IMG/VR virus record: IMGVR_UViG_2713896896_000006
Span: 1-10,861 of that record
Length of the DNA: 10,861 bases
Direction: 5' to 3' (one strand)
From: a virus
Taxonomy: Duplodnaviria > Heunggongvirae > Uroviricota > Caudoviricetes
Below are positions 8,348-9,952 of this stretch, piece after piece; position 1 is the stretch's first letter; every line of letters starts with the position of its first letter. A program made the position numbers and the translations under genes. The notes under the pieces are model-generated. The model was not told the DNA's origin, did not search any database, and saw only the letters and a program-made list of their open reading frames with translations.

Positions 8348-9759
8348 AACTGGCACCGAACTTAAAAAAACAGCCGCACGACAAAATGACCGAAGTCATT
8401 ATTTTTGCGGGTAGTGATGCCTGGGCGCACGCGAAACAATGGCAGGAGCAGGACGGGCGACTTGCTGGCGACAATGTTCCGCCTGTATGGCTTGGAGACA
8501 GCCAGCTTGACGAACTGGCAGACCTGAAAATTATCGACGATGGTCGCTATTGTGTCCGGCTGTACAAGGCAGGCCACATCAAGCCATCAAATATTAATGC
8601 CATCGGGCAAAAACTGGCGGCGGCAGGTGTACGGGATGCGAGTTATTACCCCGAGGGAATGCACAGCCAGAAGCGGGAGGAATGGCGCGACTACCTGCAA
8701 CGGATCCGCGAACAGGCAGAGCGCGGGGAAATACTTACTGACGAGCAATACAGCCAGCGAAAAACCACGCTACCAATGAGTATTGGATCTGCAGGGTACG
8801 ACACACAGCTTGATTATGTCGTTAAGGGCGTGATTCCGGCTAATTCATTGTGCAGCACATACGGCGCGAGCGGTTCCTATAAATCGTTCCTCGCGTGTTC
8901 CTGGGCGTGTCATGTTGCCACGGGTCGCCACTGGGGAGGCCGCAGGGTGGCGCATGGTTCGGTGATGTATGTCGTCGGTGAAGGGGGGATAGGTGTCCCC
9001 CGTCGTATCAAGGCATGGGAGATCGTTAATGATGAACGGGTGAAAAATCTGTACCTGGTAAACCGCCCGATTTTTCCGGCAGCCCCGCTTGATGTTGATG
9101 AAATGGTTATTGCTTCCCGCCAGGTTGAACGGGAAACGGGTAAACCGGTACGCATGATTATTCTGGATACGCTGGCGCGTTGCTTTGGCGGTAATGATGA
9201 AAATGACGCGCGGGATATGGGGGCGTTTATCCGTGGATGTGACGAACTAAAACGACGCACAGGGGCCACTGTGCTGGTGGTTCACCATTCTGGCAAGGAT
9301 GAAACAAAGGGGGCGCGTGGTTCCAGTGCATTTCGTGCATCTCTGGACGCTGAATACCGTATTCGCCGCGAAGGTGCGAACAGTGAAGCCCTGGTTATTT
9401 CCTGCACCAAAATGAAGGACGCGGAGGAACTGAAAGAGGCTGCATATGATTTACGTGTGGTGGAGCTTTTTACCGACACTGACGGGGAGTTAATCACGTC
9501 GCTGGTGGTTGTGGATAAACCGCGCCCACCCGTTGAACTGGAGCGCATCGAGGAAGCCGGGAACAAGACGGAGAATCATGCCGCGCTATGGGGATGTATC
9601 CGTTCACGCACACAGCGCGGCGATAAATGCACAATTCCGTTGTTGCGCGATGATATGAAAAAGCTGGGGTATGAGATGAAACACTTCCGGCGCTGGCTGT
9701 ACAAGCTGGAAGGTGATGGCGTTATTGCTATTGACGGTGATGACGTGCGCCCACTGTAA
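8344..9759 (+). CDS. Replication initiator ATPase, RecA-like P-loop (RepA/AAA_25-type) with an N-terminal extension
   Basis: Walker A GASGSYKS; Walker B-like MIILDTLARCFGG; VVHHSGKD motif; 471 aa; immediately followed by iterons. Confidence 0.75.
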   Translation: MKLAPNLKKQPHDKMTEVIIFAGSDAWAHAKQWQEQDGRLAGDNVPPVWLGDSQLDELADLKIIDDGRYCVRLYKAGHIKPSNINAIGQKLAAAGVRDASYYPEGMHSQKREEWRDYLQRIREQAERGEILTDEQYSQRKTTLPMSIGSAGYDTQLDYVVKGVIPANSLCSTYGASGSYKSFLACSWACHVATGRHWGGRRVAHGSVMYVVGEGGIGVPRRIKAWEIVNDERVKNLYLVNRPIFPAAPLDVDEMVIASRQVERETGKPVRMIILDTLARCFGGNDENDARDMGAFIRGCDELKRRTGATVLVVHHSGKDETKGARGSSAFRASLDAEYRIRREGANSEALVISCTKMKDAEELKEAAYDLRVVELFTDTDGELITSLVVVDKPRPPVELERIEEAGNKTENHAALWGCIRSRTQRGDKCTIPLLRDDMKKLGYEMKHFRRWLYKLEGDGVIAIDGDDVRPL

Positions 9760-9952
9760 AAAGTGGGTAGTAAAAGTGGGGAGTATGGGGAATTTAACAA
9801 AATTGAAACGCGATTCCCCACTTTCTCACCTGTATATACCCCAAAAAGTGGGGAATAAAAAACACATTGAAAAACATCATGTTAGAATCACAAAAAAAAG
9901 AAGTGGGGAGACGTTGGGTAATTTCAAAAAGTGGGTAGTAAAAGTGGGGAGC
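9759..9952 (+). repeat. Iteron-type replication origin
   Basis: At least seven copies of AAGTGGG(G/T)A (9761, 9774, 9846, 9901, 9929, 9942; inverted at 9815-9823); a perfect 25-bp direct repeat at 9759-9783 and 9927-9951; A-rich spacer at 9855-9900. Confidence 0.7.

What the first reader, a model, noticed from the sequence alone, without database searches (positions are those of the whole stretch)
9759..9952. Iteron origin with a perfect 25-bp duplication framing an A-rich unwinding segment
The dense AAGTGGG(G/T)A repeats, one in inverted orientation, and the exact duplication of AAAAGTGGGTAGTAAAAGTGGGGAG 168 bp apart flank an A-rich stretch (9855-9900) immediately downstream of the replicase. 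This is the expected layout of a satellite or plasmid-type origin bound by its own initiator, and indicates autonomous replication.
Basis: partly seen in the sequence, partly recalled or inferred. Interest (0 to 1): 0.5.

Follow-up and report, generated by a model that had tools for sequence, protein, structure and literature searches.

The report
Replication origin of a phage satellite
The repeats are real and mark the replication origin of a phage-parasitic island (a PICI satellite) sitting just after its own replicase gene, a layout already published for E. coli PICIs, so the finding is correct but ordinary.

Summary
Observation confirmed. AAGTGGG(G/T)A occurs 7 times (6 direct, 1 inverted), all within 9761-9950, against 0.18 expected. 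An exact 26-nt copy lies at 9758-9783 and 9926-9951. A 78% A+T spacer lies at 9855-9900.

The region starts at the stop codon of a 471-aa Rep. Rep has a RepA/AAA_25 helicase core and a C-terminal winged helix. It sits in an int-alpA-rep-ssb island embedded in a prophage terL gene. This is the published Gram-negative PICI origin layout, which was tested functionally for EcCICFT073. A 98%-identical relative, EcCIDi14, is catalogued in that paper.

Comparison of about 85 loci shows a conserved architecture. It has an iteron doublet, an inverted iteron, a TATATA core, an iteron, a ~54-nt spacer, an iteron and a second doublet. The iteron sequence itself changes. The variable base of GTG-N-GG tracks one residue of the Rep recognition helix (H/K447 with G, N with A, S with C). 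This includes three independent E. coli pairs.

Two caveats apply. The 26-nt perfect duplication is lineage-specific. The A-rich spacer is not conserved as A+T-rich, and the invariant core is the inverted pair around GTATATAC.

Verdict: a Rep-cognate satellite origin, already known in kind.

The parts
8344..9759 (+). rep: 471-aa initiator-helicase. It has an N-terminal domain (aa 1-131), a RepA/AAA_25 RecA-type helicase core (aa 152-320; Walker A GASGSYKS, Walker B MIILD) and a C-terminal winged helix (aa ~410-471).
   Evidence: Pfam AAA_25 E=4.9e-44. phrog_2850 matches full length, E=1.4e-252. RSF1010 RepA (PDB 1g8y) E=0.0065. RefSeq relatives are annotated 'helicase RepA family protein'. Sequence.
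9571..9756 (+). Rep C-terminal winged-helix domain (aa 410-471). The recognition helix spans aa 445-457. Codon 447 (CAC, His) lies at 9682-9684 and is the proposed iteron-specificity residue.
9758..9783 (+). Left iteron doublet, which is copy 1 of the exact 26-nt repeat. The iterons are AAGTGGGTA (9761-9769) and AAGTGGGGA (9774-9782), 13 nt apart. It overlaps the rep stop codon by 2 nt. A degenerate third copy, ATGGGGA, lies at 9785-9791.
   Evidence: A doublet or triplet at this position is conserved in relatives.
9815..9823 (-). Inverted iteron (AAGTGGGGA on the - strand). It is the most conserved block of the whole region.
   Evidence: Invariant columns C61, C63-T67 fall here in the 23-sequence alignment. 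It is present at +41 to +67 from the rep stop in 73 of 79 loci.
9824..9845 (.). Core spacer between the inverted iteron and the next direct iteron. It contains the 8-bp palindrome GTATATAC (9832-9839) and is a candidate site of first melting.
   Evidence: The perfect 12-nt inverted repeat 9813-9824 / 9845-9856 flanks it. The spacer between cores is 23 nt in 55 loci and 25 nt here. It contains TATA in 68 of 73 loci. T79 and A80 are invariant.
9846..9854 (+). Iteron 4 (AAGTGGGGA), the right arm of the inverted pair.
9855..9900 (.). A-rich spacer (78% A+T, 61% A).
   Evidence: In relatives the spacer length is conserved (~54 nt), but A+T content ranges from 48 to 85%.
9901..9909 (+). Iteron 5 (AAGTGGGGA).
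9926..9951 (+). Right iteron doublet, which is copy 2 of the exact 26-nt repeat. The iterons lie at 9929-9937 and 9942-9950. It is followed by the iteron-like GTGAGGA at 9954-9960, which doubles as the ribosome-binding site of the next gene.
9961..10212 (+). 83-aa conserved gene of unknown function (phrog_1231), the first gene after the origin.
   Evidence: It is 84% identical to the gene after the EcCICFT073 origin, even though the iterons there are unrelated.
10209..10631 (+). ssb, the island's single-stranded-DNA-binding protein and part of the replication module.
   Evidence: Pfam SSB E=1.1e-15. TIGR00621 match. It is 71% identical to EcCICFT073 SSB.

Best explanation
Window 9758-9951 is the replication origin (ori) of a phage-inducible chromosomal island (PICI-type satellite). 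The island here is embedded in the terL gene of a lambdoid prophage.

Rep is encoded immediately upstream. It is both the initiator and the helicase. Its C-terminal winged helix recognises the 9-nt iterons AAGTGGG(G/T)A. His447, at the start of the recognition helix, probably reads the fourth base of the GTG-G-GG core.

Rep molecules bound to the two terminal doublets, the central iterons and the oppositely oriented pair assemble on the DNA. They melt an easily opened segment and load their own RepA-type hexameric helicase, with no DnaA or IHF consensus site in the region. The melted segment is either the GTATATAC palindrome between the inverted pair, which I favour slightly, or the adjacent A-rich spacer. 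The island's SSB, encoded just downstream, then coats the unwound strands.

Shown here: the repeats, their position, the conserved architecture, and the co-variation with Rep. Inferred: binding, the melting site and helicase self-loading. These inferences rest on analogy with EcCICFT073 (function tested) and the staphylococcal SaPI Reps (biochemistry and cryo-EM).
For: (1) Repeats are enriched about 40-fold and confined to the rep-proximal intergenic region.

(2) The gene order matches EcCICFT073: DUF4222, rep, [intergenic iterons], small ORF, ssb. For EcCICFT073, a cloned pri-rep-ori segment supported plasmid maintenance, and deleting ori or rep abolished it. [quoted passage not shown] EcCIDi14, whose rep-ori is 98% identical to the window, is one of those PICIs.

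(3) EcCICFT073 provides a natural cassette swap. Its flanking proteins are homologous to the window's: DUF4222 70%, Rep N-domain 61%, 83-aa ORF 84%, SSB 71%. Its Rep core is an unrelated D5_N/SF3 type, and its iterons (GGTAGAYA) are unrelated too. The iterons therefore follow the Rep core and C-terminus, not the neighbouring genes.

(4) Across 79 loci from many Enterobacterales genera, with Rep 50-71% identical, the offsets of the iterons from the rep stop are conserved: about +1/+14, -57, +86, +141 and +169/+182. The iteron sequence falls into classes GTGGGG(A), GTGGGGGA, GTGAGGA and GTGCGGCA.

(5) Residue 447 is H or K with G, N with A, and S with C in 64 of 64 loci. It is the only alignment column specific to the C class.

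(6) Within E. coli, three pairs on different C-terminal backgrounds differ H447 versus N447, with GTGGGG versus GTGAGG iterons. The pairs are WIN/L088, L083/L084 and L085/L087. WIN and L088 differ in the last 60 codons by 14 synonymous changes and one replacement, CAC to AAC at codon 447.

(7) WIN and L084 are 100% and 98.9% identical in the N-domain and helicase. They are only 86% identical in the last 72 aa, and their iteron classes differ.

(8) The C-terminal domain models as a winged helix, with residue 447 in helix 3.

(9) SaPI Reps work this way: helicase plus C-terminal winged helix, iterons immediately after rep, and self-loading (PMC9371898).
Against: Replication, Rep binding and the melting site are all inferred.

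The one functional test in the literature I could read used an island with a different Rep type and different iterons.

The structural model is single-sequence AlphaFold2 (pLDDT 72 for the domain, 46 for the whole protein). Foldseek E-values were not significant.

Co-variation of adjacent sequences is partly expected from physical linkage and recombination. The number of independent switches is small: about three in E. coli plus the inter-genus classes.

The A-rich spacer is not the least stable DNA in the window. The window Rep has no recognisable primase domain, so the priming step is unexplained.
Confidence: 0.85

Rival explanations
1. The repeats are operator sites of a transcription unit. 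Rep or another island protein would bind them to control expression of the downstream genes (83-aa ORF, ssb, capsid/packaging genes), with no origin function.
For: The last repeats abut the ribosome-binding site and start codon of the next gene (9954-9963). A TGTTAGAAT extended -10-like sequence lies at 9880-9888. No terminator separates rep from the next gene, so the region is transcribed.
Against: The consensus scan finds no sigma-70-like promoter in 9500-10861. The TGTTAGAAT element is not conserved in E. coli relatives. The same downstream gene in EcCICFT073 (84% identical) is preceded by entirely different repeats that match a different Rep, and that region was shown to be required for replication. 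In other genera the downstream sequence differs while the architecture stays with rep. A dual role, origin plus autoregulation, is not excluded.
Confidence: 0.07
2. The iterons are Rep-titrating, copy-control or incompatibility sites (handcuffing, as in iteron plasmids), or a second cis element like P4 crr. The true initiation site would lie elsewhere in the island.
For: Iteron arrays outside the minimal origin have this role in P1, F and R6K plasmids, and P4 needs a second iteron cluster, crr. Both points are from my own knowledge. Only part of the island lies in the window.
Against: There is no second iteron cluster in the window. In the complete 98%-identical island and its flanks (L001), AAGTGGG occurs 3 times in 24 kb outside the origin, and about 3 are expected by chance. 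The conserved inverted pair, TATATA core and spacer fit an initiation site. PICIs are reported to have no plasmid state or copy-control genes.
Confidence: 0.04
3. The region is a packaging or recombination site (cos/pac or att), or a decaying repeat relic with no present function.
For: Satellites carry cis packaging sites, and the repeats are short.
Against: A separate cos-like site lies at 10670-10745 and nearly matches the surrounding prophage's own cos. The island's left attachment junction lies at the terL/int boundary near 3913-4075. The architecture is maintained across genera at 50-70% Rep identity, with co-ordinated iteron changes. That is not compatible with a relic.
Confidence: 0.02

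Closest known systems
Replication origins of Gram-negative PICIs, prototype EcCICFT073 (Fillol-Salom et al. 2018, ISME J, PMC6092414)
   Same: The position is the same, immediately 3' of rep and before a small ORF and ssb. The island type is the same: int, alpA-like gene, DUF4222, rep and ssb, all rightward. [quoted passage not shown] The flanking genes are 61-84% identical. EcCIDi14, from the same paper's catalogue, has a 98%-identical rep-ori.
   Different: The EcCICFT073 Rep core is the D5_N/DUF5906/Pox_D5 (SF3) type, and its iterons are GGTAGAYA in both orientations. The window Rep core is a RepA/AAA_25 RecA-type helicase, and its iterons are AAGTGGG(G/T)A with only one inverted. Function was tested only for EcCICFT073.
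SaPI origins and SaPI Rep self-loading helicases (Staphylococcus aureus; Qiao et al. 2022, PMC9371898, and work cited there)
   Same: Rep is both initiator and helicase, with a C-terminal winged helix that reads short iterons. There are 6-12 iterons directly after the rep ORF and a central A+T-rich region. No host initiator sites are involved, and Rep and iteron specificity are matched.
   Different: SaPI Reps are AAA+ (SF3/MCM-like) helicases, whereas this one has the RecA-fold RepA (SF4-like) type. SaPI origins have at least two oppositely pointing iterons on each side of the A+T region. Here only one of seven iterons is inverted, and the iterons flanking the A-rich spacer point the same way. 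There is no sequence homology.
Satellite phage P4 alpha protein with ori and crr
   Same: One polypeptide combines helicase and a C-terminal winged-helix origin-binding domain that reads short repeats. The 680-700-aa relatives of the window Rep also carry an N-terminal Zn-ribbon/Toprim primase, as alpha does. The P4 facts are from my own knowledge and.
   Different: P4 alpha is an SF3 helicase. P4 needs a second distant cis element (crr), and no second cluster is found here. The PICI authors report the proteins as different in sequence.
IncQ plasmid RSF1010 replication system (RepA helicase, RepC initiator, oriV iterons)
   Same: The helicase core is the closest solved relative (PDB 1g8y RepA, E=0.0065, aa 153-326). 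The origin is an iteron array plus an A+T-rich segment (own knowledge).
   Different: In IncQ, a separate protein (RepC) binds three and a half 20-bp iterons, and RepB' primes at ssi sites. Here origin recognition appears fused to the helicase, and the iterons are 9-nt cores.
Classical iteron plasmids (pPS10, R6K, F, P1, RK2) and phage lambda ori
   Same: Directly repeated initiator-binding sites lie next to an A+T-rich unwinding region, and the initiator uses winged-helix domains (own knowledge; reviews listed).
   Different: Those iterons are 17-22 bp in regular tandem arrays with DnaA boxes and often IHF sites. Their initiators (Rep_3 family, lambda O) are not helicases and recruit host DnaB. 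Here there is no DnaA or IHF consensus, no Rep_3 domain, and the initiator is itself a helicase.

Membership tests
Gram-negative PICI replication origin (EcCICFT073 type) | Lies immediately 3' of the island's rep / pri-rep gene | tested here: met
   The first iteron starts at 9761, and the rep stop codon is 9757-9759.
Gram-negative PICI replication origin (EcCICFT073 type) | [quoted passage not shown] | tested here: met
   Iterons lie at 9761-9854 and 9901-9950 around the 78% A+T segment 9855-9900.
Gram-negative PICI replication origin (EcCICFT073 type) | Host element is a PICI: int, alpA-type regulator and rep, all unidirectional, 10-20 kb, with no full phage structural or lysis set of its own | tested here: met
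   int lies at 4075-5313. The 67-aa gene at 5326-5529 matches excisionase/regulator phrog_66 at E=9e-7, with only a weak HTH_17 hit. DUF4222, rep and ssb are all on the + strand. The complete relatives L001 and L089 show ~10-11 kb islands with capsid and terS genes only. The alpA assignment is by weak similarity.
Gram-negative PICI replication origin (EcCICFT073 type) | Rep-dependent replication of the ori fragment | not testable with these tools
   Shown only for EcCICFT073 in PMC6092414. Here it is supported indirectly by Rep-iteron co-variation.
SaPI-type origin / Rep | Rep is a helicase with a C-terminal winged helix that determines iteron specificity | tested here: met
SaPI-type origin / Rep | Helicase of the AAA+ SF3/MCM-like class, homologous to SaPI Reps | tested here: not met
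   The only Pfam hit is AAA_25 (RecA-fold, RepA/DnaB-like), and the closest solved relative is RSF1010 RepA.
SaPI-type origin / Rep | At least two iterons on each side of the A+T region pointing in opposite directions | tested here: not met
   Only one of seven iterons (9815-9823) is inverted. Iterons 9846 and 9901, which flank the A-rich spacer, are co-oriented. The opposed pair instead flanks the GTATATAC core.
Iteron plasmid origins (Rep_3 type) | 17-22-bp tandem iterons, DnaA box(es), and a Rep_3-family initiator that recruits host DnaB | tested here: not met
   The cores are 9 nt with irregular spacing. No TTWTNCACA or IHF consensus occurs in 9700-10000. Rep has no Rep_3 domain.
P4 ori/crr system | Second distant cis-acting iteron cluster (crr) and an SF3 alpha-type primase-helicase | tested here: not met
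   There is no second cluster in the window or in the complete relative L001. The helicase is AAA_25 type.
Helper-embedded PICI (HE-PICI; PMC10111431) | [quoted passage not shown] | tested here: met
   The terL N-terminal half (2918-3913, GpA_ATPase) lies directly before int and is co-oriented with it. In L089 the same junction shows terL split into 'missing C-terminus' and 'missing N-terminus' halves around the island. The configuration is described.

The most novel reading that the evidence does not exclude
Origin specificity in this widespread RepA-type satellite replicon family may be set by a one-residue/one-base code. Residue 447 of the Rep recognition helix (His or Lys, Asn, Ser) would read the fourth base of the GTG-N-GG iteron (G, A, C). 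This code would have been switched repeatedly, by single CAC-to-AAC changes matched in all seven or more iterons, creating orthogonal replicons. In addition, the true melting and loading site may be the invariant inverted iteron pair around a GTATATAC palindrome rather than the A+T-rich spacer named in published descriptions. That would be a head-to-head double-hexamer arrangement like viral SF3 origins, but built on an SF4-type helicase.
Probability: 0.5. Interest if true: 0.4.

Novelty: already known. Interest (0 to 1): 0.22.

Why it matters
The origin marks this island as a self-replicating phage satellite, which fixes the annotation of the rep-ori-ssb module. This origin type occurs downstream of a RepA-family helicase in 659 of 5,426 complete E. 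coli genomes.

The kind of element and its origin layout are already published, so the finding adds no new biology by itself. The comparative by-products are of modest specialist interest. They are a candidate single-residue specificity determinant (H447) and an invariant palindromic core. Both give directly testable predictions about how a self-loading RecA-type helicase-initiator recognises and opens its origin. They could also help design orthogonal replicons.

Tried and rejected
1. Phage database search with 9600-10100 found no match. The plasmid database gave only 5 hits, some in records of 1.4-4.9 Mb that are too large to be ordinary plasmids. The element is therefore chromosomal.

2. 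The sigma-70 promoter and terminator scan of 9500-10861 found no promoter and no + strand terminator between rep and the next gene. The promoter/operator reading was not pursued.

3. IHF, DnaA-box, Fis-like and GATC consensus searches in 9700-10000 found nothing.

4. Rfam and tRNA scans of the whole window found nothing.

5. A full-text literature search for the iteron strings returned only unrelated primer sequences. I could not read Fig. 2a of PMC6092414, so I cannot say whether exactly this iteron is drawn there.

6. A sequence-profile search of the Rep C-terminal region against PDB gave no meaningful hit.

7. The full-length single-sequence AlphaFold2 model was poor (pLDDT 46). Only the C-terminal domain model was used.

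8. I considered that iteron classes diversify to avoid cross-talk between co-resident islands. This is not supported. Co-resident loci in Xenorhabdus sp. TCT-1 (L007/L011), X. bakwenae (L012/L015) and Pectobacterium sp. B2J-2 (L054/L056) share a class.

9. I considered that the exact 26-nt duplication is a conserved requirement. This was rejected. Left/right matches of 23 nt or more occur only in WIN/L001, L084 and L004, and elsewhere only iteron-length matches occur.

10. I considered a LexA-box reading of CTGTATATAC. It was rejected because the second half-site is absent, with CTGT-N8-CAAA here.

11. The EcCIMP1 paper has a different Rep type and no origin data.
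Full report
**1. The observation**

The repeats are real. AAGTGGGKA matches seven times in the window. Six are direct (9761, 9774, 9846, 9901, 9929, 9942) and one is inverted (9815-9823). All lie within 190 nt. Dinucleotide-preserving shuffles give a mean of 0.18 matches and never more than 2.

With one mismatch allowed, only three isolated extra hits appear elsewhere. The exact duplicate is 26 nt (9758-9783 and 9926-9951, 168 nt apart). The inverted copy and the following direct copy form a perfect 12-nt inverted repeat with 20 nt between the arms.

The stretch 9855-9900 is 78% A+T and 61% A. It falls in the least-stable 1.5% of 46-mers, but it is not the least stable DNA of the window. 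The array begins one base after the TAA of ORF 8344-9759.

**2. Context**

ORF 8344-9759 encodes a 471-aa protein with an AAA_25 (RepA/DnaB-like, RecA-fold) helicase core. It matches phrog_2850 over its full length. Its closest solved relative is the RSF1010 RepA helicase.

- Upstream genes are a tyrosine integrase (4075-5313), a small excisionase/regulator-like gene, a Bro-N gene, several small ORFs and a DUF4222 gene.
- Downstream genes are an 83-aa conserved ORF and an ssb gene.
- The leftmost 4 kb of the window is a lambdoid prophage late region. It holds endolysin, Rz, terS and only the N-terminal ATPase half of terL, which ends just before the integrase.
- In E. coli KSC64 the same junction is annotated as a terL gene split around an ~11-kb island.

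This is the published 'helper-embedded PICI' configuration (PMC10111431).

The 500 nt around the finding match 1,056 of 5,426 complete E. coli genomes on chromosomes. They match no phage record. The best hits are 98% identical. One of them is strain clone D i14, whose island has the order int, HTH, Icd-like, DUF4222, RepA helicase, small ORF, SSB, capsid, decoration protein, terS.

**3. What is already published**

Fillol-Salom et al. 2018 (PMC6092414) defined Gram-negative PICIs. They state that the region immediately 3' of the replication initiator gene is the origin. [quoted passage not shown] This organisation is said to be shared by all PICIs identified in their study.

For EcCICFT073, a cloned pri-rep-ori segment maintained a temperature-sensitive plasmid, while ori or rep deletions did not. 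EcCIDi14, the clone D i14 island, is in their catalogue. The kind of feature, and very probably this allele, is therefore already described.

**4. A natural cassette swap**

I retrieved EcCICFT073. Its genes around the origin are homologous to those of the window:

- DUF4222: 70% identical
- the first 131 aa of Rep: 61%
- the small ORF after the origin: 84%
- SSB: 71%

The rest of its Rep is an unrelated D5_N/DUF5906/Pox_D5 protein. Its intergenic repeats are GGTAGAYA / TRTCTACC, unrelated to AAGTGGGG. KSC64 carries the window's integrase with the primase-type Rep. The iterons therefore travel with the Rep core and C-terminus, and not with the integrase, DUF4222, the small ORF or SSB.

**5. 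Conservation across genera**

A scan of one genome per species returned 80 loci encoding relatives of the window Rep. They are 50-71% identical over aa ~130-471 and come from Xenorhabdus, Pantoea, Kosakonia, Pectobacterium, Serratia, Morganella, Citrobacter and others.

In most of them the 240 nt after the rep stop have the same plan:

- a direct doublet or triplet at about +1/+14
- an inverted copy at about +57
- a direct copy at about +86
- a spacer of about 54 nt
- a copy at about +141
- a doublet at about +169/+182

An inverted iteron is present at +41 to +67 in 73 of 79 loci. In 55 loci the spacer to the next direct core is exactly 23 nt (25 nt in the window). It contains TATA in 68 of 73 loci. 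In a 23-sequence alignment, the invariant columns fall in the inverted iteron and the TA of the palindrome.

Its A+T content ranges from 48 to 85%.

The long exact left/right duplication is found only in the window lineage, one other E. coli island and one Xenorhabdus island.

**6. Iteron-Rep co-variation**

The iteron core is RTG-N-GG. N is G, A or C, and is uniform within a locus. I aligned the helicase and C-terminal regions of 64 loci. Only one column is specific to the C class, and it is also specific to the A class. It corresponds to window residue 447:

- His goes with GTGGGG(A).
- Lys goes with GTGGGGGA.
- Asn goes with GTGAGGA.
- Ser goes with GTGCGGCA.

The A class in that set is nearly all Xenorhabdus, so I also sampled six more E. 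coli islands. They form three pairs that share a C-terminal background but differ at residue 447 (His versus Asn). The iterons switch from GTGGGG to GTGAGG in each pair: WIN/L088, L083/L084 and L085/L087.

WIN and L088 differ in the last 60 codons by 14 synonymous substitutions and a single replacement, CAC to AAC at codon 447. That pattern indicates strong purifying selection with one specificity change.

WIN and L084 are 100% and 98.9% identical in the N-domain and helicase. They are only 86% identical in the last 72 aa, and their iteron classes differ. The C-terminal domain and the origin are therefore exchanged as a unit.

**7. Mechanism**

Rep most likely binds the iterons through its winged helix, oligomerises, melts a nearby segment and loads itself as the replicative helicase. 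SaPI Reps do this. They combine a helicase with a C-terminal winged helix, have iterons directly after rep, and need no loader or ATP for origin binding and melting (PMC9371898).

No DnaA or IHF consensus is present. The island's SSB gene follows the origin.

Which segment melts is open. The comparative data point to the oppositely oriented iteron pair around GTATATAC as the invariant core. I give the core a slight edge.

The window Rep lacks a primase domain. Relatives of 680-700 aa carry a Zn-ribbon/Toprim primase at the N-terminus. Priming is therefore unexplained here.

**8. Rivals**

- A pure operator or promoter role is unlikely. No promoter consensus was found, the -10-like element is not conserved, and the same downstream gene has different repeats in EcCICFT073.
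- A copy-control or crr-like role is unlikely because there is no second cluster.
- A packaging site is excluded. A separate cos-like site at 10670-10745 nearly matches the prophage's own cos.

**9. Verdict**

The feature is the Rep-cognate origin of a PICI-type satellite and is already known in kind. The functional claim rests on homology of layout, one published experiment on a different Rep allele, and strong co-variation. It does not rest on any test of this sequence.

Noticed in passing
window 2918-3913 and 4075-5313; L089 14840-15832 and 27114-28235: The island sits inside the terminase large-subunit gene of a lambdoid prophage. Only the N-terminal ATPase half of terL precedes the integrase. 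In E. coli KSC64 the C-terminal nuclease half resumes after the ~11-kb island. This matches the published 'helper-embedded PICI' class (PMC10111431).
   Followed up: partly
window 10670-10745 versus window 2207-2283: The island carries a cos-like site after ssb (cosQ-like GGGTCCTTCC, cosN-like GGGGCGGGAGCGTCGC). It is nearly identical over ~70 nt to the surrounding prophage's own cos just upstream of its terS, and then diverges. The satellite therefore mimics the packaging site of the prophage it is embedded in. The same pattern is reported for EcCICFT073.
   Followed up: partly
window 8344-8736 (Rep aa 1-131); L004, L040, L057 rep genes: Rep is modular. Its first 131 aa are 61% identical to the N-terminus of the otherwise unrelated EcCICFT073 Pri-Rep. 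Relatives in other genera replace this domain with a Zn-ribbon/Toprim primase (680-700 aa) or lack it (~350 aa). The window Rep has no recognisable primase, so what primes replication is unclear.
   Followed up: partly
L032, L035, L039, L046, L029, L003, L033 (spacer between iterons 4 and 5); L002 ~4196-4206: In relatives whose central spacer is not A+T-rich, it carries a conserved motif CATTACTGG(n)TTTG. The same CCATTACTGGC occurs in the validated EcCICFT073 origin, which has an unrelated Rep and unrelated iterons. Its role (host factor site or priming site) is unknown. The window has an A-rich spacer in its place.
   Followed up: no
window 6386-6829 (- strand) and surrounding A+T-rich DNA ~6360-6860: This is the only sizeable ORF on the opposite strand of the island (147 aa). 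It lies in very A+T-rich DNA and has no Pfam, NCBIfam or PHROG match. Its position corresponds to the variable accessory zone of these islands.
   Followed up: no
L084 1683-1835: RefSeq annotates a 50-aa 'hypothetical protein' inside the homologous origin of E. coli TUM9757. Given the iteron structure, this is probably a spurious gene call.
   Followed up: no
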